A stretch of DNA of 64,000 nt. It comes from Octopus vulgaris (Eukaryota). The notes under the pieces are model-generated. The model did not search any database. It saw nothing but the letters and a program-made list of their open reading frames with translations, and was not told the DNA's origin. A program made the position numbers and the translations under genes. The DNA is taken from assembly GCA_951406725.2 (NCBI GenBank), contig OX597817.1:117614001-117678000 (forward strand), read 5' to 3'. Of the stretch, positions 660 through 47,742 are shown one piece after another (position 1 is the first letter of the stretch; every line of letters begins with the position of its first letter).

Positions 660-2090
660 ACTCATAATTATGTCAAGAAAATTAAAACGAACTTTGAAAG
701 AAGAAAACAGGATCTTAGAAATTGCAATATCTTTTAGCAAATAGAGGAGGCAAAATGTCTTGTTTTGTGATACCGCAATTGTAACGGTTAAGAAATTCAA
801 TACACAGCAACTTTTTATTCTCTTCATAAAGACAATAAATATGCCAAATTAGAGGGTGAGTCTGGAAAGATAAGCATTGCAGAATTTGAAAGATGGAAAA
901 CAAAAGCAAAGGCAATTTTTCCAGTCTGTGTTGTATCAAAGAAATGCTGCAACAGAAGTCAGCTATATAGTTGCATATTTACTTGGAAAAAATGGTAAGC
1001 CATTTAGCGATGCAGAACTCATAACGAAATGTATTTTAGAAGTGGTAAAGTTAACAAATATAAAGAGGTGCCTCTTTCAAGGACTAATACAGATCGACAG
1101 TATCAATTGGCCTGTAATGTAAGAGAACAATTGAAAGCTATAATCCAAAAAGATGTATATTGCGCAGTAGCTTCCACAGATTCAGCACAACTATTGTATT
1201 TTTCGTGCTATAACTGATGATTTTCAATTATATAAAGAATTATTTCATCAAAGGAATGATGTAAGGGATAGATATTTTTAACAACTAATTTCGTAAATAA
1301 TATGTGCACGGATGGTCCGCCAGGATATGATGGCTGAAAATGACGGATTTATTGCATATCTTAAAAGAGTAACCAAAGAACCAAAGGTACTGACTTCTTT
1401 TCATTATATTTTACATCAGCAAAATCTCTGCAAAATGTCATTTTAAGTGACACTTTGCAGAAGGTTATAAGTATTGTAAACTATATTCGAGAAAATGCCC
1501 TGAAGCATCGTCAATTTCGAAACACGCTGATGATGCGTGACAAAGTAATTAATGTGAATTTGTCTTATCACTCAGAAGTACGCTGGTTGTTGCAAGGGAA
1601 AGTATTAGTTATACTATTGTCTTTACGAAGGCAAATAATTTACTTTTTCAAAGGAAACAACAAACGTGATTTATCAGATCCAAATTTTTACAGAGATGTT
1701 GCATTTTTATGTGATGTGATGTCAAAATAAAATGAGTTAAACATTTTGTTGCAAGACAAAATAATTGTATTTATAACATGTGACAAAAAATTTGGGCATT
1801 TAGAAAAAATATCGTTTTTCAAGTTCCTTTTAGTTAAATCAAATTTTTTAGAAGACTTTCCTTAGCTTAAATAGGTAATGAGGGAAAAAGAATATATCTA
1901 TAAATCGTTTGAAGAATGCGAGTGAGTTTTAAACTCATTAATAGAAGAATATAATAAAAGATTCAATGATTTTGAAAAACATAACATCACTCTGAAACTT
2001 GCTTTTCAGCCTCGCTTAGTTGATGAATCAGAAGCTCCCTAAGAGGTACAAAATGAGCTTATTGAAATGTCAAAAAATGCTACACATTTG
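660..2090 (+). pseudogene. Degraded hAT (Buster/SPIN, GTF2IRD2-like) transposase
   Basis: Fragments SYIVAYLLGKNGKPFSDAELITKC, VPLSRTNT, STDSAQLL, HYILHQQNL and VISIVNYIRENALKHRQFRN...YHSEVRWL.QGKVL...DVAFLCDV; many stops and frameshifts. Confidence 0.85.
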
Positions 2091-3479: not shown

Positions 3480-6125
3480 TCCGAAATATAAATACATATA
3501 TTTTGTTGTATTTGGGGAAAAACATGCAATATATATTTGGTGTTCATTTGCTTCAGCTTTATTTTATATTAATTGAGTCTCGGCCAGAGTTCTTTCTTCA
3601 CACTTCTCTGACCTAATCAGTGGTCCTTTACTTTTTGTGTCTCTCCTTCCTAACGATCTGCCATTTTTTATTCTGTTGCATGTGTCATTATTTGCGCATG
3701 CGTATATCCCTGTGTGTGTCTATGGTTAGTAAGTGTGTGTGTGTGTGGGGGGGGGTAATCTGTATGGTAACTGCATAATGAGCATCCCCTGTGAATTCAC
3801 ATTCATTTAATTTCATTTCATTTAATTAATTTATTTATTGTTTCCTTTTTCTACTTATTTTTTTGTATTAATTTAATTTAATTCAGTTTCAATTTTATAT
3901 TTTGTTTATGTATATAATTATTTAATTCCATTTATTTATCTGTGTATTTTATTAGTTTCATATTATTATTAGTTTATGGGGATCTTATCCTGTCATAGGT
4001 TGTGTGTGGCGTGTGTGTGCTAGTATTCCATTCTAGTTTTCTATTTAGGCTAGGCTGATCTATTAAGAGTGTAGCTTCCGTAAAGTGTTTAAGCGTTGCG
4101 TCCGTTGTATGTGTGTATACGACTATAACTTATTCAATGAATATCTAGGCAAATATGACGTTAGACGTTTCTGCCCCATTAGACGTTTAAAAGTTAGACC
4201 CCCTGCAATCACTACTACGGCTAGGAAAACCCCTATAGAGAGATGGAGCGTGTGGACCAGAGCAATACAGACCCCCGTAACAAATATTAAGTAAAGAATA
4301 TGATGGCGCATGCATTAGGAGCTAGTATAATTGTTACTCTAAAAAGCCACACGGTCAAGTTTAACAACAAAATAAACGCACAGGACAAAGGAGCACCCAT
4401 CGAAGTTAGCATCGCCGTTGATGTGGCCGATTTTTTTATGATATGGTTGGGCAGGAGGCTTAAAGAACGTCTTGTACAGAACTGAACTCCATACTCATGA
4501 ACATGTACTCTTGCTTTGTCAATAATATGAACATAGTGGTAAAGGCACCCCTCCACCAAAAGAGAGTACCCTTGAATAGAAATAGAAACTAACTTTGGAG
4601 AGCATCCAGCAAATAGCTAACTCCATCCACCAGAGTATTAAGGTCACGATGGACTACCCTACAAACACCCTAAAACTAGAACACTAGCAATAGATACAGA
4701 ACTCTAGCTGGAAACAGTGAATAATAAAACCCAAATACTCCATTCCCAGTATGCTCAACCTATGGCCCACAAATACTACTGGAACTCAGCTATCACAGAC
4801 AATGCCTAATTCAATATGTTGATGGCAGACCTCATCAGAGTAATGAGAAATATGTCCCACATATGCGACCCTACAAAGTTATAGAGACAGATACAACACT
4901 TCGGTCATGGCATGCAGTTCTGAGGATACAGCCATAGAGAAAGGATCAGAAAGGAGCCATGAGGAAATTTGAAACTATCATACATAACGATATGATTGGG
5001 ATTTGCTCACTCTATAGGAGCAAGCCATGGAATAACCATTAAAAGGACTAAGAAGAAAATAGGGAAGGCCAGCTCATGGTATGATAACCACAAATACCAG
5101 AGTGTTATGTTCGTCGACACCACTCCTAGAGACGAACTGGCGTACTGCTTTAGAAGGCCTCCTACAAAAGCTTTAGCTAAGAATTAAGGTTGGAGAAAGG
5201 CCAGGTAATTCTGTCAATCACTAAGAGAACACCCTATACTGATAGGAAATATGTTGTATGTAGATTTAACCCACAAACAAACTGTAAATTTAGGAAAGTA
5301 GTCTATAGAATAAAATGTACAGAGGGACGGTGCAGAAACAAAACAATGACATACGTAGGGAAGACAGCACGGAGCATAGGAGAGCGGGTAAATGAAAATT
5401 GGAGGAAACTTAAGAAAGAGAAGAGCTCATCGGTTCTATACCAGCATACCGAGCGGGAACACGGAAGCTTACTCAACAATATAGAAGTTAAAATCTTGTC
5501 CACATATAGAACGGACGCAACGCTTAGACAAATTACTCACATAATTAATCAATCTAGCCAAAACAGAAAACTAGAACTCACACACACCACAACCTATGAC
5601 AGAATAAGATCCCCATAAACTAATAATAATATGAAACTAATACAATTCACATATAAATAAAAGGAATTAAATAATTAAACACATAAACAAAATATAAAAA
5701 ATTAAACTAAATTTAATTAATACAAAAAGACGAAATGTAAACTAAGTAGATATAAGCAATAAATAAAATAAATTAAATTAAATTAATATGAGTAAACAGG
5801 GAATACTGATAACGCAGGTACCATACACATCCACCCCACACACACACTAACTAAACATAGATACACACAGGGTTATACGCATACGAAAATAAAGACATAT
5901 ACAACAGGAATACAAAATGGCAGACCGTTAGGAAGGAGAGACAAAAAGGAAAGAAGGAAGCAAAGGACCACTGAGGAGGTCACATAAGTGTAACGAAAGA
6001 AAGAACTCTGGCTGAAATACAATTAATACGAAATGAAGCTGAAGCAAGTGAATATAGCGCGTGTGTTTTCATTGGCTTAATTGACAGCATGACCATCCCC
6101 AAATAAAACAATATCTGTTTCAACA
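3480..6125 (+). mobile_element. Degraded Penelope-like element with an inverted copy of its 3' end placed at the 5' side
   Basis: GIY-YIG fragment VVYRIKC..C...YVGKTARSIGERVNE..SVLYQH at 5190-5618; RT thumb remnants at ~4500-4900; ~3500-4090 is the reverse complement of ~5520-6120. Confidence 0.85.
5965..6020 (+). ncRNA. Hammerhead-like core in the PLE terminal repeat (second copy at 3575-3626, minus)
   Basis: Consensus of the two copies is CTGATGA-ggtcagag...ctctggcc-GAAA; stems I and III are not evident. Confidence 0.5.
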
Positions 6126-12802: not shown

Positions 12803-13644
12803 ATTTGTTTCAGTCATTAGAATACGGGCATGCTTAGCTAAGCCTTGAAGTATTTTAGCCGGCGAATCGACCCCAGTACTTATCTTTGACGCTGGTACTT
12901 ATTTTATCGATTTTGTTTGCCGAACCGCCAGGTTACGGAGATATGAACTACCAGTACCGGTTGTTAAGCGGTGGTGGAAGACAAACATAGACATACACAC
13001 ACAAACACACGCGAACGCATACAAGCACACACACACACGCGCGCGCACACACGCACACACGCATGTATATACCTCGGGCTTCTTTGACTTTCCCCTGTAC
13101 CTAATCTACTCACAAGGTTTCATCGGTGAGCTGGCAGAAACGTTAGCACGCCGGGCGAAATGCTTAGCGGTATTTCGTCTGCTGTTACGATCTGAGTTCA
13201 AATTCCACTGCGGTCGACTTTGCCTTTCATCCTTTCGGGGTTGATTAAATAAGTACCAGTTACGCACTGAGGTCGATGTAATCGACTTAGCCCCTTTGTC
13301 TGTCCTTGTTTGTCCTCTCTGTGTTTAGCCCCTTGTGAGTAGTAAAGAAAAAGGTATTTCATCTGCCGCTACGTTCTGACTTCAGATTCCGCCGAGGTCG
13401 ACTTCGCCTTTCATTCTTTCAGGATCGATTAAATAAGTACCAGTTACGCACTGGGGTCGATATAATCGACTTAATCCGTTTGTCTGTCCTTGTTTGTCTC
13501 CTCTCTGTGTGCAGCCCCTTGTGGGCAGTAAAGAAATGAGAGACTACAGTAGAAGACAGTTACCCAAGGTACCACACAGTTGCACTGAACCCAAATCCAC
13601 GTTGTTGGGAAGCAAACTTCGTACCACACAGCCAAGCCAGGGCG

Positions 13645-17199: not shown

Positions 17200-19280
17200 T
17201 TTTGAGATGATATGACCTACACAGTATTGATTGAGTGAATCCATGTTCAATGGAGAATGTTGATATCGTTGTTGCGAACCATAACCCAAAATGCATAAAA
17301 TTTCATTTGTGAAATGGTTTTCCGTGGTTGAAGATTAAACTTTGGCATGTCAATGCGATAGCCATCGTCACCATAGGGGAACAGTAATAAATATATTGGA
17401 GGGCATCATGCGCAGGATGAAGTTCATTAATTTTGAAGGCGCGAGTCTTGCCATTCAAGAACAATATGACGGTTTGAAGTACACTCATTGAGACTTGTTA
17501 TAAGCACCACAACTTCGTCTGTTTAGGGTTTGTTAAAGCAGCCCTGATGCTGTCCTGGTGGAGTGCAGTCACATCGAATGATAACCTTAAACTGATTGGT
17601 GTTAGCATCTGTACCCTTAAGAGCAATTTGAAAATGGCTACGTAGAGGTTTATGGTATGAAGCATATATTGAAGGGGCTGCAGAAGAGTTGGTCTAGTTC
17701 CTGTAGCAACTGAAGCTGTTCGTGCAATTTCCTTAGGTCCGTTCTCCATAAAGTAAATCTGCAGAAAGCTATGTTGATCGCCATCTTGTGGAATATGAGA
17801 GCCAATTTGGTGATAAACTTGGCTTTGTAATTTGAAGGTGGGCATGTAATTTCCATCTCTTTTTGGTGTATGACCAAAGCGTGTCATTTGGAAAACGGAA
17901 TTTTAGGCTCTTTTATTCCGAAGAAAGTGTTTAGAATCTGGATGGTCTGCAAGCAGTAAAGACTTCAAAGGTTCGATACCGACTTGTAAATGAGGCAAGT
18001 TAGCTATTCCATTGGAGCAGCATATACTGGCAGATTCTGCTGGCCACCTCATTAAATTACAATGAACGCAAACTGTAGACATGTTGCCAATGAGGATATG
18101 TGAGTGTGGTGCGTAGTCTTCATGGGGGCTGTATTGAAAGGCCTTGTTAGACCAGCAACTGGCAGAAATCCTCGAAAAGACATTAGAACGCATTTTACGC
18201 TGATAATCAGCCCCAAGCTTTGTGGCCCTTTGTCCAACAGTCTCTAAAGCACGGCTTTTTGAAGTAGAGGCAGTATCGCGAGCATGGCAGAGTTCTGCTT
18301 GTTGAGCTGTCTGTGACGCTCTGGTGACTGCAGTAGAAGCAGCATTGTGAGCACGCCAAAGCACACACTGCTCTTCCGTCTCGTTTGCTCGGAAGCATCA
18401 CAAAACGGAAGCATTTTTTGTTTTTCTGCCAATGTGTCTCTTGCTCTTTCGAGGCATCCTATCGGAACTCTGTAATTAAATGCAAACACGAAAACTTCAA
18501 ATGGGATATAGGGTTCGGCAATATGTGATGTTGATCGATAAAGAAGCAAAACTTGAGGATGAATAAGCTACTAGAACCGACCGAATAGTGTTTTTTTTAG
18601 AATGTAACTGATGGATTCGATCTGTGAAATTCTTAAAAACATAAGAAGAATTTGCCAAAATATCATTCAATTATGCTTACTGATAAAGAAATAACTCGTA
18701 ATTTGAAATGGTGATACTAATATTCCTTCTTCATGAAATGGAATTAAAGAATAAGTAATGGGAATGTACGTGTCACATTAAGTGAGTCACGCAAAAGTCG
18801 AAAAATACAGTTCATTTTTTGTCCTATGTAAGAAACTGTTAGCTAAAGTTTTAGATATTTGTCACCCAAATTTCCACGTTCAATTACCAACCAATTTGTC
18901 GTTTTCTACTGTCAATTGAATTTTGCTGTGAGAAAATATTCACAGAGTTGATTGATCGCCAATTAGTGCCATTTATTCGTTAAAGTTAATATTTTATTTT
19001 ATTTTTACTTAGTCAAAATAATTGATTTGTCTTCTTGCTCTTTTGAGTCAGCTTATTTATTAAACACAGAATGAAATGCCTGCACGCACGTGTTCGATTA
19101 CTGTTCATTCTAGAGTGATATCGATTTTTACTGTAATCGCATATGTTCTTTCATGAAATTTAACTGGTGCACCCACTGTGACGATTTTAACTATGTGTAA
19201 AATTTCAGCGCACTCAGTTGAAAAATACGGCTGTTATAATATTTTGCACACACACAGACAGAACGGAATTTATATAACAA
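17200..19280 (-). mobile_element. Helitron relic: 5' end plus N-terminal Rep/Helicase coding region, disrupted and 3'-truncated
   Basis: CVHCNLMRWPAESASICCSNG...HFLRNKRA*NSVFQMTRFG...PTFKLQSQVYHQIGS...FLQIYF, then INELHPAHDALQY; Helitron-style 5' terminus (tatataaa..ctgtctgtgtgtgt..gaaattt) near 19200-19280. Confidence 0.9.
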
Positions 19281-20334: not shown

Positions 20335-20672
20335 CTTTTATGTATTTCAGTCTCTTGACTACGGCAATGCTGGAGCACCGCCTTTAGTTGAGCAAATCGA
20401 CCCCAGGACTTATTCTTTGTAAGCCTGGTATTTATCTTATCAGTTATTTTGCCAGACTGCTAGGTTACGGGGTCGTAAACACACCAACATCAATTGTCAA
20501 GCGATGCTGGGGGAGGGGGGTTAAATGCAGACACACAAACACGTGCGCGCGCGCACATACACACACACACACATATATATATATTTCCGTCTACCAAATC
20601 CTCTCACAAGGCTTCGGTCGGCCAGAGGCTATAGTAGAAGACACCTGCCCAAGTTGCCACGTAGTGGGACTG
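20335..20672 (-). mobile_element. SINE family A, head truncated
   Basis: Matches other family A copies; stops at gtgggactg. Confidence 0.85.
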
Positions 20673-20680
20673 CTTTTATT

Positions 20681-21113
20681 TTAATTTTTATTATCATTTG
20701 TCCGACGAGTCCCCGGGAGATGAGTAAAGGGACAATCCCTGTGCAAACACAAACTGTCTCGCTGGGAATAGCGGCAGGTTTGGGGACTCTTTGCTTGAGA
20801 TATTGGTGGTTGTGGTGGTGTTGTAATAGAGTATGTATTATGGCGGTGGCTGTTGTAGTTTGTGGGGATAGAGCGTTTTGTCCCAGGTAAATGGGTGAAT
20901 TTGCAGTCAGTATCAGTGCATAATCTATGGCGGAGAGAATAACGGCAAATGATGGGGTTTCGAATGGGTGTGTGGGTGCGTGTATGAGTTGTGACATGTG
21001 TAGATGATAGTTTGTTGAGGTTTTGGCGACCTTTGTGACCTGTGGGAGGTAGAGTTCTTGAACAAGTAGTAGGAGGTATATTCCTTGAGGTAGTAGTGAT
21101 GGTAGTAGTAGTA

Positions 21114-21201
<88 letters not shown>

Positions 21202-21850
21202 GCAGAAGAGATGTTGACAGTGATGATGATTGAGGAGGTGGATTCCATGAGATAGCGGTAGACAAAGATGTTTTTCGATTGATAGTGGTTGTAGTACTAG
21301 TAATAGTAGGCATAGGAGATGATGTTGACAGTGATGATGATTGAGCTACTGGGGCACTGAAAAGAAGGGGTGGTGCTTCCTGCTGTGAAACCCTGTTGAC
21401 TGGGAGGGTCATTCTAAATGAATCAAAGAGTGATTCATACTGTTGTTGTTGTTGTTGTTGTTGCCACTTTGGTTGTTCTTCAGGTTGTTGTTGTTGATGC
21501 TTCTGAAGTTGTTGATGTTGCTGTAGCTGTTGTTGTTGTTGTTCAGGTTCTTGTTGAGGTTGTTGCTGTTGATGCTACTGAAGTTTTTGTTGTTGTTGCG
21601 CCGGTGATGCGTTCGAAGAGAAAACACATCCCAGTTTATCCAAGAGTTTATTGATTAATTTAAAAGCAACTTCGATTTGCTCTAATTTATTTTGTATCTG
21701 CTGTTCAGATCGAGTTTTCAAAAGGTGAACTGTCCGTTTAGAAATTTCGTTCAGACACGAAACACCTATGTTTTTCGTTTGGGTAAGGCAATGCCATATG
21801 TTTATTAGAACGTCGATTTCATTATCAGACCAGTTTTGATGGTTAGCCAT
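20681..21850 (-). pseudogene. Intronless ~389-codon frame: Myb/SANT-like domain + polyQ + polyT + two CCCH zinc fingers, with one in-frame TAG at 21575-21577
   Basis: ORFs 21575-21850 and 20681-21412 share one frame and the gap reads HQQQQPQQEPEQ...YESLFDSFR; N-terminal NWSDNEIDVLINIW..RSEQQIQNKL; fingers CRYSLRHRLCTDTDCKFTH and CRYSQRDSLCLHRDCPFTH. Confidence 0.75.
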
Positions 21851-22182
21851 TCTGGTGGATGTATTTTATTAAATTTTATTTTATTTGTTTGTTTTGTTGA
21901 TTATTTTTATTTATTTATTTTTTTGTGGGTTCCCTGATTCCTTGATAATTCCTGGAGAAGTATGTAGAATAGATTGTACAGAATGTTTGCTGTAATACTG
22001 AGAGATTTGTGATTGTATTTGAATTATGAATTTGCAGTTATTTTATCTTTCTCTTCTTTTTTTTTTCTAATGTTTAATGTGTGGGTGATCCTTCAGTTAT
22101 CAGAAGGTGTTGGACGAAGTGTATATATAAATAAATACTGTCACATAGGAGTGTGTGGTTTTGTTTATTTGGTTGTTTGAAA

Positions 22183-22221
22183 TTAATGACCGGCGGAGAG
22201 GAGTAAAAACACGCCTTTATA
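22183..22221 (-). promoter_or_regulatory. Candidate TATA box and initiator for the Myb-CCCH frame
   Basis: Minus strand TATAAAGG followed ~32 nt later by TCATT, ~335 nt upstream of the ATG (context ccagaATGG). Confidence 0.35.
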
Positions 22222-22323
22222 CTTCAACAATCAACGGGTATACTTAGGGTTTTCCCTCACCTGTTTTCGTCTTTTGTTTTCTGTAAATTCGAACTATATA
22301 TGTATACATACATATATACATAC

Positions 22324-22390
<67 letters not shown>

Positions 22391-22429
22391 ATGCATATAT
22401 ACGTACATATATGTACGTACCTACCTCTA

Positions 22430-22630
22430 CATGTATATATATACATACATATATGGGTACAGGACACAAAAAAACGTTGAACACAATGAGAAACGAAAAC
22501 ATAAACACAAAACCAAGGAAATGGACATTTTTTTAAACAACGAAAAAAAATGAGTACAGGACATACAAAACAAGGAAAATTCTCCTTCTTCAGTCGCCTT
22601 AATTTCATCTACTCCACGTTACACAAGAAT
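22430..22630 (-). mobile_element. PLE-type 3' tail fragment (same family as 53600-53830)
   Basis: Shared ggagtaga..(c/t)tga(a/t)gaagg..tgtcctgt..ccatatatg. Confidence 0.5.
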
Positions 22631-30254: not shown

Positions 30255-30829
30255 AAGGCGGCGAGCAGGCAGAATCTTAGCACACCGGGCGAAATGCTTA
30301 GCGGTATTTAGTTTGCCGTTACGTTCTGAGTTCAAATTCCGCCGAGGTTGACTTTGCCTTTCATCCTTTCGGGGTCGATAAATTAAGTACCAGGTACGCA
30401 CTAGGGTCGATGTAGTCGACTTAATACCTATGTCTGTACTTGTTTGTCCCCTCTATGTTTAGCCCCTTGTGGGTAATAAAGAAATAGGTATTTCGTCTGC
30501 CGTTACGTTCTGAGTTCAAACTCTGCCGAGGTTGACTTTGCCTTTCTTCCTTTCGAGGTCGATGAATTAAGTACCAGTTACACACTGGGGGCGATATAAT
30601 CGACTTAATCTGTTTGTCTATCCTTGTTTGTCCTCACTGTGTTTAGCTCCTTGTGGGTAGTAAAGAAATAGGTATTTCATCTGTACGATCTGAGTTCTAA
30701 TTCCACCGACGTCGAATTTGCTTTTCATCTTTTCGGGGTCAATAAAATAATTATCAGTCAAGTACTGGGTCGATGTAATCAACTAAACCCTCTCTAAAAT
30801 TTCAGGCCTTGTGCCTATAGTAGAAAGGA
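30255..30829 (+). mobile_element. SINE family B trimer with 16-bp TSD
   Basis: One head plus three tandem body units; TTATTAATTACATATT at 30239-30254 and 30830-30845. Confidence 0.92.
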
Positions 30830-36700: not shown

Positions 36701-37125
36701 GGCGCAGGCGTGGCTGCATAGTAAGAGGTTTGCTACTCAACCACACGGTTCCGGGTTCATTCCCACTGCGTGGCACTCTACGCATGTCTTGTACTATAGA
36801 CTGGTGACGAAAAAAGCCTTGTGAGTGGATTTAGAAGATGGAAACTGAAAGAAGCCAGTTGTATATATATATATATATATATATATTGTGTGTGTGTGCG
36901 CGCGTGCGTGTGTGTTTGTGTGTGTATGTTTATCCCCCCACCAACGCTTGACAGCTAATGTTGGTTTGTTTACGTTCCCGTAACTTTGCGGTTCGGCAAA
37001 ACAGACGAGTAGGATAAGTATTAGGCTTACAAAAAAAAAAGCCTTGGGGTCGATTTGTTCGACAAAAACGGTGTTCCAGCATGTCCGTAGTTAAAAGACT
37101 GAAATAAGTAGAAGAATAAAAGAAT
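36701..37125 (+). mobile_element. SINE family A, full length
   Basis: tRNA-like head (tggctgcatagt A-box, gggttcattccc B-box), internal microsatellite, (gaataaaa)n tail. Confidence 0.88.
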
Positions 37126-37544
37126 ATATACCTATACCTACATACGTATATATACTTATATGTATGTATTTTTTGTTTACATAAAAGGAGATTTGTATTC
37201 TCAAAATACCGTTAAACACTATTTACACTTTTAAAATCGCTAACCCCTATTTTACAGGTTATTAGCGAACCTACTTAACTTCTCATTACCTCCCTTTAGC
37301 CTTCTCACATACTAATTACCACTACTCAACTTCACCCCACATTTTAAACTAATTACTGAATTTTTAAATCACTTTATATACTACGCTAGGGCACAATTTT
37401 TCCTATAATCAAATTCCATTTGATAGCTTCACAACCGACCCATTTAACATGCTAAAATTTCCTTATGGAACTTATTGTTTTTCTATGCACTTTTCATCCC
37501 TTTCTAATTGTTCCTTTACGTAGCCCATTGTACACACATATATA

Positions 37545-43360: not shown

Positions 43361-45588
43361 TTGCTGTCTTAATCCATAATTACATTACATGTATCGGTCT
43401 GATGAGTTCAAGTTACTGCCTTTACAAGTTATGCAGATAAGTTCGTAAAATGGAATTCACCCATTAAAAATATATACTCACAGACACATACCTTAAATAA
43501 CTCGCATACACAGATTATCCCTTTCTTTCTTTCTCACAAACTCATACACATATTTTTAATACTTGACATTCACTCCCTACATTTGGGGTTTAATAGGTAG
43601 TCGATAAAAAATCTGAAAAAAGGTCAGGTGAAACTAGAATGTGAATCGTTCTGGTCTTAAAGAATGTACAACACGCGCGCGCACACACACACACACACAT
43701 TCTTTCTATCTCACACAATACACTCGCCATCCCCCACTCCAAAGATATCTCTCTTCTCTATCAGTATTCCATTGTGGGTCTCAGCTAGGTTTAATAAAAA
43801 TTTAGTCGGAAAGCCAGGTTTTGTGTTGTAATTCAGGTAGTAGTCTCTGTATTTACCAGAAATTATGAAGCATAGCATATTTGACATCGTTTTGATATTC
43901 TTGTTGTGTGCTGATGTAGTTTAGAAGCTTTGATGTGTGATATTATTATCTTCATTTATATTGTGATCATACCTCTGTGACGTTGAGCGACAGAAGATTG
44001 TCTTGCACCTCGTTAGGGAATATTAAGTCTCTTTATGGACTTAATATTATGGACTTAATTTAGTATTTAGCATACACTATGTAGGTTGCATGTGGTTGAC
44101 GCTCACGCGCTGCGAATTAGAGAAGGGATTCAGTGATGGTATCATCTTCGTACAAGTGGAAAGATTTAGACGTGATTCTTAAGAGGTTTTTGATATATTG
44201 GTGACAAAACAAACCCCAAGGTGCTCCGGTATTAATAGAGTATATCTCGGAGAAAATGTCTATCAGGATACGCCGCTATTGTGTCATGAAACAGGAAGTC
44301 GTTGATACAAAATATGAGCAACGTACTGAAATATTTGATACGCTGCTTAGCTGGAGGATAAGATGATAACTGATTTTCTAGGTTCCACACAATAACAATT
44401 TCCACCTAATTTCTCGAGGAAAGTGGCCTAATGGTTAGTGATATAGACGTTTAGGTGTGTAGTGGACTTGTCTTCGTAAAGCCAAATCTGCTGCATGCCT
44501 TCGACAATTATACTGGTAGCCTTTAAAGAAGTGGGGTTACAGAAGATAATCGAAAGAGATTTTTTAATGACTCTTCTCTGTCGCGTTCGAGTTATTGAAA
44601 TTGAATAAGAACGGTTGTTTATAAAAAAGAGAGGGAAAGAAAAAGAGAGTCGGACATGGTGTATGCAACATGGAGTAGAGTGGAAATTATGCAGCAAATG
44701 TAGAAGCTTACGCTTGGAAGTACTGCCTGGACGAAAAGGTAATTTCAAGTAGAGTTCATTTTGGCAGTAAGCAAAATATTAGGCTGCAGATTGTGAATCG
44801 GAGAAAGCATAAAAACTGTGTGACGAACACAGGCGCTTTTAGCGATTTAGACAAGGGTCGTACACAAGTTATTGTGCTGGTTATAACATATCTTGTCTGT
44901 AGGGATTGGTGATTTTCTTCCAGTGTTTATATGTCTCGTGTTTAGAATTATCTTCACGTCACATTTTTAATGAACCACCCAGGGGACGTACCTAAGATTA
45001 TAGTTTAAGATACCCAGTGTGTTATTCACTAACAGGCCAGCGGTAGTAGAAACATGCAGGATGGAAAAGCACTGTCGTGTGATTTTATATCCAGTGCAAG
45101 TATTTGTCACCAGGCAATCGTCGGTGATACAATAGCTTGTACTTGCGCCATAGAATAGAAATGTATGTGGTACAGAGAATAAATGTTAACTTGTGAGAAA
45201 GAGAAAGAGAAAGGCTAGAATGAAAAAAAAGCACAACGATTCTCTCGAATGTTGTTTACTAGTGTTCAAGAAGTAATCAATTGGATGTATGAGAATGGGA
45301 AAAATTCATTATAGCGAACATGAAAAATGGAGGAGAATGGCGAAAACAAATAGTAATGCAATAGGAGGTATTCGTCAAAGCCAGAAAATATTATTGACAG
45401 AGATAAGTTTGAAAATTGCTGTGGGGTGTGCACATGCGCACGAAGAGAAAAATACATAAAAACACACTCGCACACAAGCACACAAAAATAGGACACGACT
45501 ACACATACAGAAATATACAAACAAACATATACACACACACACACATACATACATACATACGTACGTACAACACCCCAACTACAATGAA

Positions 45589-47742
45589 ATGAAAGAAGAC
45601 ATCGCAGAATTCTGCAGAAAATTAAGACTTACTGAGGAGCTATACGATAAATACAACGAGGACGAATCGTTAGCCAGAAATAGGAGTAACTACACCCCCT
45701 CGAAAGGTAAGAATAAAACACTTGATGATTTCTGTGACCACATATCAAATTACCCATATCAACATATGCACAAACAAAAACACAAACCAAACTTCAGCAA
45801 AAAAGAATGGGCTGAGTTGAACAAATTAAAACTAGATAAAACAATAACAATCAAAGAGGCCGATAAAGGGAGTGCTGTTGTCTTAATGGATACGACATTT
45901 TACATAACTTTGGTACTTTCTATGCTGGAAGACACAACATACTATGAAAAGGCACAAAACTACAGTCAACAAAAAATAATGAGGGAACTAAAATCCATAT
46001 TAAACCCATACAAAGCAGGGCTCACCGACAAAGAATATGATTATATGACCAATTTCACAAGTAAAACTAGCCAATTCTACGGTATACCTAAGATCCACAA
46101 AAGTGAAAAAATAAGCAACGCATGCAAGATAGCTACAGACAAAATAATTAAAGTCCCTAATCCTAATGACCTCAAATTGAGACCCATAATAGCAGGTCCC
46201 GCATGCGAAACCCACCGCCTCAGTAACTTTTTAGACACCCTGTTAAAACCACTCCTCAAACATGTCAAAAGCTATATAAGGGACGACTTAGATATGCTCA
46301 ATCACCTACCGAATACTATAAACAAAAACACCATACTGGTATCCTTCGATGTAGTCAACCTCTACTCCAATATCCCCCACAACCTAGGACTAGAGGCAAT
46401 CCAATTCTGGCTAGAGAATCACGCCAACGAACTACCACACCGCATCAAAAAAGAATTTGTGATAGAAGGGGTTAAATTCATCCTGGAAAATAACTTCTTC
46501 GCCTTCAATGACAACTTCTACCGACAAAAATCGGGGACTGCGATGGGTACACGAATGGCCCCCTCCTTTGCCAACCTAGTCATAGGATACCTAGAGATCA
46601 GTCTGTATCGTAAGGTTCTAGAAAGATATGGCAGCCCTTTCTCCATCTACATAGAAAACAACTGGAAGAGATATCTAGATGACTGTTTCATCCTTTGGCA
46701 TAAAAATATAGAAAAACTCATAGAATTCCAGAAAATTTTAAACGGACTGGACGTAAACATCCAATTCACGATGGAATATAGCCAACAACAACTCCCCTTC
46801 CTCGATATCCTCATTAAGAAAGCTAATAATATAATAGAAACAGACATATACTATAAGCCTACAGACTCTAAGCAATATCTTCCATTCAATTCATGCCACC
46901 CCAGACACACCAGGATGAATATCCCCTTCAATCTAGCAAAAAGGATATGCACTATAGTCTCTAACGCAAACACCAGAGACACACGACTACAAGAACTAAA
47001 AGATACCCTAATCACCAGGAACTATCCACCTTCACTTATTGACAAGTGCATTCAACGTGCCCTTCAACTTAACATCAAGGAACTGAGACATCCCAAATCA
47101 AAGAAAAACTTACAACCAAAAGCCTTACCATACATCTCCACACACAACCCTCTCAATAACGAAGCCTTCGACACCATCCTCCACAACATACCCCTCCTAA
47201 AAAAAGACCACAGAATGAACACAATCCTCCAAACACACACGATCATAAAAAGCAAAAGACAGCCTAGATCCATGAAAAGTCTCCTTACACAAGCCCGAAT
47301 TCACTCTTCAACACAGAAGCCGACAGTAAAAAAATGTGGAAGACCCAATTGCGGGATATGCGACTATCTAATCGAGGGTTCTGAGTTCTCCTTCAAACAG
47401 GGACAACGGTTTACAGTGAAAAGCAACTTCACATGTGCTTCGGAGAACCTAATATACTCACTAACCTGCTCCGGGTGTCAAGAGCAGTACATAGGCCAAA
47501 CAAAAAATGGTTTGCGTAAACGAATGGCCCTGCACAGATCCCAGATAAAAATTCCCCAAAACAGAAAAATAGCTTTTAGCCAACACATAGATACTTGCGC
47601 CAACAAAAAAACACCAAACTTCAGAATTTTCCCCCTCTACCAATTTAGGGACGATACAACCTCGAGACAAAGAATAAGTAAAGAAAATCTCTTTATTACA
47701 AAATACAAGCCACTTCTTAACGGGTCTACGACAAACAATTAA
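45589..47742 (+). CDS. PLE reverse transcriptase + GIY-YIG endonuclease (717 aa, uninterrupted)
   Basis: IKEADKG, FYGIPKIHK, LRPIIAG, SFDVVNLYSNIP, QKSGTAMGT, RYLDD (46672-46683), LPFLD, SCHP; Cys linker CGRPNCGIC; NLIYSLTC..C..QYIGQT..LRKRM..H. Confidence 0.95.
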   Translation: MKEDIAEFCRKLRLTEELYDKYNEDESLARNRSNYTPSKGKNKTLDDFCDHISNYPYQHMHKQKHKPNFSKKEWAELNKLKLDKTITIKEADKGSAVVLMDTTFYITLVLSMLEDTTYYEKAQNYSQQKIMRELKSILNPYKAGLTDKEYDYMTNFTSKTSQFYGIPKIHKSEKISNACKIATDKIIKVPNPNDLKLRPIIAGPACETHRLSNFLDTLLKPLLKHVKSYIRDDLDMLNHLPNTINKNTILVSFDVVNLYSNIPHNLGLEAIQFWLENHANELPHRIKKEFVIEGVKFILENNFFAFNDNFYRQKSGTAMGTRMAPSFANLVIGYLEISLYRKVLERYGSPFSIYIENNWKRYLDDCFILWHKNIEKLIEFQKILNGLDVNIQFTMEYSQQQLPFLDILIKKANNIIETDIYYKPTDSKQYLPFNSCHPRHTRMNIPFNLAKRICTIVSNANTRDTRLQELKDTLITRNYPPSLIDKCIQRALQLNIKELRHPKSKKNLQPKALPYISTHNPLNNEAFDTILHNIPLLKKDHRMNTILQTHTIIKSKRQPRSMKSLLTQARIHSSTQKPTVKKCGRPNCGICDYLIEGSEFSFKQGQRFTVKSNFTCASENLIYSLTCSGCQEQYIGQTKNGLRKRMALHRSQIKIPQNRKIAFSQHIDTCANKKTPNFRIFPLYQFRDDTTSRQRISKENLFITKYKPLLNGSTTNN

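What the first reader, a model, noticed from the sequence alone, without database searches (positions are those of the whole stretch)
20681..21850. Hidden Myb/SANT-polyQ-polyT-(CCCH)2 protein split by a single UAG
Seen: two listed ORFs form one ~389-codon intronless frame broken only by TAG at 21575-21577; the sister repeat unit has ctt-cag-AAG-cat where this one has ctt-cag-TAG-cat. It has a trihelix/Myb-like N-terminus, low-complexity Q and T/S tracts, and two C-x8-C-x4-C-x3-H fingers each followed by LPGT. AATAAA follows the stop. I do not recognise this putative DNA-binding plus RNA-binding architecture as a named gene. Inference: ORF1 or accessory gene of an uncharacterised mobile element or virus, or a lineage-specific retrogene. 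Speculative: cephalopod A-to-I editing could recode UAG to UGG (Trp).
Basis: partly seen in the sequence, partly recalled or inferred. Interest (0 to 1): 0.75.

Follow-up and report, generated by a model that had tools for sequence, protein, structure and literature searches.

The report
Dead CR1 copy, unusual Myb-CCCH ORF1
This is a broken, cut-off copy of the first gene of a common jumping-gene family (a CR1 LINE) in an octopus-like genome, so the stop is ordinary decay; the unusual part is the family's protein, which joins a predicted DNA-binding Myb/SANT domain to likely RNA-binding CCCH fingers, a layout not found in the papers searched.

Summary
The frame is real (minus strand, 21850-20681, 389 codons, one TAG). 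It is ORF1 of a CR1-clade LINE. Intact copies are ~4.9 kb, with this ORF1 followed by a 1043-aa endonuclease/reverse-transcriptase ORF2; the genome holds 1,016 exact 3'-UTR matches and 71 exact ORF1-start matches. About 100 RT residues match, by eye, a cluster classified as CR1 in PMC10294476. The window copy is dead: relatives have CAG where it has TAG (10 of 10) and AAA where it has the terminal TAA (13 of 13), the AATAAA is coding Asn-Lys, and ORF2 is missing. Editing read-through and an ORF1-only subfamily are not supported (49 of 51 relatives continue towards ORF2). What remains of interest is family-level: four CR1 lineages here have Myb/SANT plus CCCH ORF1s, whereas the same finger array elsewhere often follows a PHD-like motif (64 of 150 hits; Myb 0 of 150). 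These lineages end in (TA)n microsatellites (16 of 16, 17 of 20; background ~4%). Whether Myb does the targeting is untested.

The parts
20671..22242 (-). Remnant of a CR1 LINE (family A): near-complete 5' end, ORF1, nothing further 3'
   Evidence: ~80% identical to full copies L050/L040 over this span; 5' match starts at ~22242; no ORF2 match anywhere in the window
21851..22242 (-). 5' UTR, with a ~120-bp internal deletion near 22188 relative to other copies
20681..21850 (-). ORF1 pseudogene, 389 codons, lacking the last ~50 codons (incl. the conserved C-terminal amphipathic stretch) of intact ~410-aa ORF1
21647..21838 (-). Myb/SANT-like three-helix domain (aa 5-68)
   Evidence: Pfam PF13837 E 8.8e-6, 26.5 bits vs cut-off 27; family C copy 29.8 bits, over cut-off; model of the family domain has three helices, pLDDT 80
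21575..21577 (-). In-frame TAG, a CAG>TAG nonsense change not seen in the relatives examined
   Evidence: CAG in 10 of 10 relatives' matching motifs; L043 reads CTT CAG CAG CAT
21441..21598 (-). Gln-rich (CAA/CAG) tract, variable in length among copies
21090..21201 (-). (ACT)n poly-Thr expansion, much longer than in intact copies
20879..20947 (-). CCCH finger 1 (C-x8-C-x4-C-x3-H-LPGT)
   Evidence: matches the last finger of the widespread array, 27 bits
20708..20776 (-). CCCH finger 2, duplicate of finger 1
20675..20683 (-). Terminal TAA (AAA>TAA nonsense) and following AATAAA, which is coding Asn-Lys in relatives
   Evidence: AAA in 13 of 13 relatives matched
20340..20670 (-). High-copy SINE-like repeat, entered mid-way at the junction with the LINE (its first part is missing)
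   Evidence: other copies in the window, e.g. 36758-37130, continue past the junction point
22295..22454 (.). (TA)n-rich microsatellite ~50 bp beyond the element's 5' end; likely the insertion site
   Evidence: same context in other copies

Best explanation
The locus is a decayed, 3'-truncated copy of ORF1 of an octopus-type CR1 LINE family whose intact members encode a Myb/SANT-polyQ-(CCCH)2 ORF1 and an endonuclease/reverse-transcriptase ORF2; the TAG is a CAG-to-TAG change not seen in the relatives examined, and it likely arose after insertion. Shown: copy number, element anatomy, clade, the two nonsense changes, the missing ORF2, purifying selection between families, (TA)n flanks. Inferred: a full-length copy inserted beside a (TA)n tract by target-primed reverse transcription, then a deletion fused the A-rich end of ORF1 to the middle of a SINE (2-nt CA microhomology). 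Also inferred: in live copies ORF1p packages the element RNA with its CCCH fingers, oligomerises through its C-terminal helix, and uses the Myb/SANT domain, which likely replaced the PHD-like module of relatives, to hold the particle on DNA or chromatin. Site choice itself is more likely made by the ORF2 endonuclease.
For: At least 150 dispersed matches. 10-kb loci show ORF1 (~410 aa) overlapping a 1043-aa ORF2 with Exo_endo_phos_2 (E 6e-14) and RVT_1 (E 2e-30). Young copies are 97-99% identical over ~4.9 kb and end in a short tandem tail. 1,016 exact 3'-UTR vs 71 exact ORF1-start matches is the LINE 5'-truncation gradient. The ~100 RT residues shown for O.sinensis_33_LINE are identical by eye to family A ORF2, and that cluster is classed Jockey/CR1 (PMC10294476 supplements). 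15 of the 29 other best copies are open through both fingers; 14 are broken in different ways. Families A vs B: pS 0.78 / pN 0.28 in Myb, 0.68 / 0.13 in the fingers. The window copy's private Myb changes are 2 synonymous and 7 replacement on 50/181 sites, ratio ~1 (small numbers). The SINE is entered mid-way and there is no poly(A) or tail.
Against: The frame is unbroken by frameshifts over 389 codons although the copy is ~6-10% diverged from its nearest relatives (14-24 differences in 231 bp); length changes in CAA/ACT triplet tracts keep the frame, which explains part of this. Pooled private changes over 19 copies give pN/pS 0.46, not 1. One other copy (L070) stops at the same A-rich tract. 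The Myb match is below Pfam's cut-off in family A, and fold searches do not separate Myb/SANT from homeodomains (no Foldseek E<=0.001; best Z 6.5). No binding or expression was tested.
Confidence: 0.93

Rival explanations
1. The copy is an expressed or domesticated gene whose UAG is recoded to Trp by A-to-I editing.
For: No frameshift over 389 codons; start codon and most of the 5' UTR present. A-to-I recoding is common in coleoids (recalled, no call).
Against: Ancestral codon is Gln; independent stops in the same tract in other copies; the end of the frame is another nonsense change and the conserved C-terminus is gone; private changes look neutral.
Confidence: 0.02
2. It belongs to an ORF1-only non-autonomous subfamily (like HAL1 or Ag-Sponge) made by premature polyadenylation at the AATAAA.
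For: 5' end present, 3' part absent; L070 ends at the same A-rich tract. ORF1-only derivatives of CR1 are known (Ag-Sponge; PMC5786205 passage).
Against: 49 of 51 relatives with finger 2 continue downstream; the window copy and L070 join different sequences; neither has a poly(A) or the family's 3' UTR, which such elements keep.
Confidence: 0.04
3. It is a Myb/SANT accessory gene of a DNA transposon or virus, or a host retrogene.
For: The domain resembles host Myb/SANT genes in this genome (hhalign with L084: probability 87.5%, 24% identity).
Against: In every intact family-A copy read it lies directly before an APE-RT ORF2 within one repeat unit; 80-86% protein identity to those copies.
Confidence: 0.01

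Closest known systems
CR1-clade LINEs (Jockey superfamily); octopus clusters such as O.sinensis_33/46/25_LINE in PMC10294476
   Same: APE + RT ORF2, two ORFs, short structured 3' UTR with a short tandem tail, 5' truncation; RT stretch identical by eye to cluster 33
   Different: That study classified RT domains; the word ORF1 occurs once in its main text, in a passage I did not see. The lineage (motif LYSLQRRRERY) forms its own branch apart from avian CR1 (38% identity, support 1.0).
ORF1 types I-V of Jockey/CR1/L2 elements (Metcalfe and Casane 2014, PMC4120745)
   Same: Modular, non-enzymatic ORF1 with a small N-terminal reader domain and zinc fingers; modules swap between lineages
   Different: Listed domains are RRM, CCHC, PHD, esterase, Tnp22 and zf/lz; Myb, SANT and CCCH occur 0 times in the text. 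This ORF1 would fall in type V (unclassified).
PHD-like + CCCH-array ORF1 of related invertebrate-type CR1 elements
   Same: Same CCCH array ending in H-L-x-G-T-x-R, same C-terminal SFL helix, same RT branch
   Different: N-terminus is PHD-like, not Myb; family A/B keep only the last finger, duplicated
Microsatellite-targeting non-LTR elements Waldo, Mino, Kibi, Koshi, Dong (PMC3812793 passage)
   Same: Insertion into a simple repeat
   Different: Those target ACAY, AC, TC, TTC or TAA; no CR1 and no (TA)n-targeting LINE is named in the passages seen; there the endonuclease is thought to choose the site
HAL1, HeT-A, Ag-Sponge (ORF1-only LINE derivatives; PMC5786205 passage)
   Same: ORF1 without ORF2
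   Different: Those are amplified families that keep a 3' tail; this is a single truncated copy without one

Membership tests
CR1-clade LINE | ORF2 with APE endonuclease and RT | tested here: met
   Intact copies: PF14529 E 6e-14, PF00078 E 2e-30; absent from the window copy
CR1-clade LINE | RT groups with CR1 references | tested here: met
   Identity by eye over ~100 residues to a cluster classed CR1 in a published tree. My own trees hold only one labelled reference (a bird protein recognised as CR1 from recall) and cannot assign clade alone.
CR1-clade LINE | Short 3' UTR with hairpin and short tandem tail (PMC4316615 passage) | tested here: met
   ~90-nt UTR, 10-nt repeat tail; folds at z -2.3, 6 of 200 shuffles as good. 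Tail unit is not the amniote octamer.
CR1-clade LINE | Dispersed, mostly 5'-truncated copies | tested here: met
   1,016 3' vs 71 5' exact matches; truncation points seen
Proto2 clade | RT resembling Proto2 references | tested here: not met
   Proto2 rows in the published alignment differ clearly by eye
ORF1 types I-IV | RRM+CCHC, Tnp22, PHD(+RRM) or esterase | tested here: not met
   None in Pfam scans of families A-D ORF1; remote RRM not tested by HHpred
Myb/SANT-like (PF13837) | Score over the curated cut-off of 27 bits | tested here: inconclusive
   Window 26.5, family B 25.2, family C 29.8 bits
Myb/SANT-like (PF13837) | Three-helix HTH fold | tested here: met
   Helices 13-29, 35-48, 53-83; tied matches to SANT, Myb and homeodomains, Z ~6.4, rmsd ~3, 60-70 aligned
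Myb/SANT-like (PF13837) | DNA binding | not testable with these tools
   needs a binding assay
ORF1-only non-autonomous LINE | Many copies with a shared internal deletion and retained 3' tail | tested here: not met
   49 of 51 continue; no tail at the window junction
A-to-I recoded stop | A>G at the stop in RNA of this locus | not testable with these tools
   No RNA holder listed; contigs laid were of paralogues

The most novel reading that the evidence does not exclude
Octopus CR1 LINEs carry an undescribed ORF1 class in which a captured Myb/SANT domain replaced the PHD-like reader of a widespread, also unclassified PHD-CCCH ORF1, was shared between two distant RT branches in the same genome, and acts as the DNA-targeting module that steers these elements (and the SINEs they move) into (TA)n microsatellites.
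Probability: 0.2. Interest if true: 0.65.

Novelty: new variant of a known kind. Interest (0 to 1): 0.33.

Why it matters
The locus itself is ordinary decay and needs no editing. The family adds an ORF1 layout missing from the published type scheme I read, and shows a module swap (PHD-like versus Myb/SANT in front of the same CCCH array). It also shows young, intact CR1 copies in an octopus-type genome (97-99% identical, both ORFs open); the octopus LINE paper PMC9115989 does not mention CR1. If ORF1's Myb domain helps choose (TA)n sites, that would be target selection by ORF1 rather than by the endonuclease, which can be tested by domain swaps.

Tried and rejected
Word-index protein search with whole family A ORF1: 0 hits among 7,980 candidates; with the family C array: 1 hit among 3 candidates; the full HMM search then found 1,863, so those blanks meant low sensitivity. 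No RNA holder listed; laid contigs were paralogue mixtures and say nothing on the TAG or expression. A 30-of-30 count of (TA)n after 3' tails is discarded: the query held ~20 bases of the TA flank, so it is circular; the 10-of-13 5'-junction count comes from the same loci and is only partly independent. Family D was fetched as a hoped-for Myb-less control for TA targeting; it has Myb too, so it is no control. Proto2 (recalled as a candidate) was rejected. Metcalfe's type-V CR1 subgroup 2 is mosquito elements in the rows seen, so probably not this class (part 1 of 2). Fold searches gave no significant single match. The RTclass1 paper was not held. The Myb domain was not searched against the large protein library (the one job went to the CCCH array), so its range outside this genome is open. 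Repbase and Dfam entries could not be searched and may already annotate these domains. Paper searches.

Full report
Observation. The finding lies on the minus strand. ATG 21850, TAG 21577-21575 and TAA 20683-20681 give 389 codons with one internal stop. The N-terminus matches Pfam Myb_DNA-bind_4 at E 8.8e-6 (26.5 bits, cut-off 27), and two C-x8-C-x4-C-x3-H fingers each end in LPGT.

What it belongs to. The first 87 residues find 150 scored matches (of 589 candidates) across the genome. Of the 29 other best copies, 15 are open through both fingers and 14 are broken in various ways. In 10-kb stretches the ~410-aa ORF overlaps a 1043-aa ORF with endonuclease and RT domains. Young copies are 97-99% identical over ~4.9 kb and end in a ~90-nt UTR with a short tandem tail. 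Exact-pattern counts are 1,016 for the 3' UTR and 71 for the ORF1 start, as expected for a LINE. The RT stretch shown for O.sinensis_33_LINE in the alignment supplement of PMC10294476 is identical by eye to family A over ~100 residues, and its Table S7 classes it Jockey/CR1; Proto2 rows look different. ORF2 is far from human L1 (95 bits) and R2 (59 bits or less).

The window copy is dead. The codon in CTTCAG-NNN-CATCRR is CAG in 10 of 10 matches among 54 distinct relatives; the window has TAG and AAG. A looser motif gives 39 CAG, 15 CAA, 1 AAG, 1 CGG and no TGG. Other copies carry their own TAA stops in the same tract (L003, L005). The terminal TAA is AAA in 13 of 13 relatives that match the motif, of 29 loci examined, so the AATAAA is coding sequence. 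No ORF2 is found in the window. At 20671 the LINE joins the middle of a high-copy SINE-like repeat whose other copies continue past that point, which fits a later deletion. Of 51 relatives with finger 2, 49 continue downstream; L070 stops at the same tract and L077 jumps to RT. Between families A and B selection is purifying (Myb pS 0.78, pN 0.28; fingers 0.68, 0.13), while the window's private Myb changes are 2 silent and 7 replacement. Against a tidy picture: pooled private changes over 19 copies give 0.46, and the frame has no frameshift.

The ORF1 architecture. A Pfam Myb scan of the genome showed host-like genes (L081-L085) and a third LINE family, C, with Myb, a four-finger Cys/His array and the same C-terminal helix, upstream of an endonuclease. 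A fourth lineage, D (3,543 RT-motif matches; RT 42% identical to A), has Myb plus only the first finger; this was seen whole in 1 of 20 loci and frameshifted in one more, most being 5'-truncated. A profile of the array finds 1,863 clusters at E<=0.001. Among the best 150, 64 have a PHD-like Cys pattern by regex and none matches my Myb profile (best E 0.089); Pfam PHD reached E<=1e-4 in 4 of the 60 scanned; many hits are partial. Of 80 metagenome loci fetched by ORF2, 4 carry the array upstream of APE-RT and none carries Myb; the 3 with enough RT fall in the same branch as families A-D, with PHD-like N-termini. The window's two fingers both match the last finger of the array. In a 36-sequence FastTree tree, A-C group with an Argonauta protein (0.998) and D sits on another sub-branch (0.97), with PHD-type elements between them; deeper nodes are weak (0.6-0.7), so a module swap is suggested, not shown. 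The predicted domain is three helices (pLDDT 80), tied between SANT, Myb and homeodomain folds.

Insertion sites. 3' tails run straight into (TA)n in 16 of 16 family A tails in loci chosen by ORF1 (background 3.4% of window 24-mers), in 5 of 5 family B tails by eye, 3 of 4 family C and 17 of 20 family D (background 37 of 913 blocks). A further 30-of-30 count was circular and is dropped. Three PHD-type metagenome elements are not followed by (TA)n, but they come from other hosts. No Myb-less relative was available in this genome, so the link between Myb and TA targeting is untested. The review PMC3812793 credits the endonuclease for microsatellite targeting.

Mechanism. Shown: identity, decay, anatomy, TA flanks. 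Inferred from known LINE biology: ORF1p packages the RNA (CCCH fingers), oligomerises (C-terminal helix) and tethers to DNA or chromatin (Myb in place of PHD); ORF2p nicks and reverse-transcribes. Confidence in the identity and decay 0.93; in Myb as the targeting module 0.2.

Literature seen. PMC4120745: passages, section 6, part 1 of supplement 1 (no Myb, SANT or CCCH in the text). PMC13343379, PMC5203782, PMC3708506, PMC9115989, PMC3812793, PMC4316615, PMC5786205: term passages only; Myb and CCCH occur 0 times in the first two, CCCH 0 times in the third. PMC10294476: passages, section 9, searches in supplements 19 and 23 and in files 1-12. PMC7846101: passages and one supplement row. Nine paper searches listed no paper on a Myb or CCCH ORF1.

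Verdict. Observation confirmed; ordinary pseudogenised LINE ORF1 at the locus; a new variant of a known kind at family level. Interest 0.33.

Noticed in passing
window 20340-20380 (minus) versus L255/L270: The 3' end of the very abundant SINE-like repeat resembles the 3' tail of one family D CR1 sub-lineage (GGCGGTG..CCAGCATGGC..CTGAAACAAGTAAAAGAG), so that LINE likely mobilises the SINE.
   Followed up: partly
L031 3278-7525, L045 2294-6697, L011/L049: Some copies have ORF1 and ORF2 fused in one frame (1416, 1468 aa); probably single indels in the overlap region, but the 120-nt ORF1/ORF2 overlap with T/A runs could also be a frameshift site.
   Followed up: no
families A, B, C 3' UTR (L040, L045-L048, L141-L148): A ~45-nt 3'-UTR core is nearly invariant across families whose RTs are only 70-88% identical, while the tail unit differs.
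   Followed up: partly
window 45460-47742 (+): Intact-looking 760-aa RT + GIY-YIG ORF, a Penelope-like element; a second GIY-YIG fragment at 5181-5618.
   Followed up: no
window 17498-18567 (-) and 1365-1730 (+): Fragments that look, from recall, like Helitron Rep/helicase and hAT/Buster-type transposase; no significant Pfam hit.
   Followed up: no
window 13169-13536 and 30303-30758: Tandem copies of a 184-bp repeat unit.
   Followed up: no
L083, L084 (two loci 18 kb apart on one contig): Host-like Myb/SANT exons with no LINE ORF2 seen; similar to the ORF1 Myb (hhalign 87.5%), a possible donor class.
   Followed up: partly
P0125, P0133: Two CCCH-array relatives contain 2A-like (I)E(P/T)(N/H)PGP motifs, as reported for APE-type LINEs in PMC3708506.
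   Followed up: no
L151 1203-2750: ORF1 with two PHD-like modules in tandem ahead of the CCCH array.
   Followed up: no
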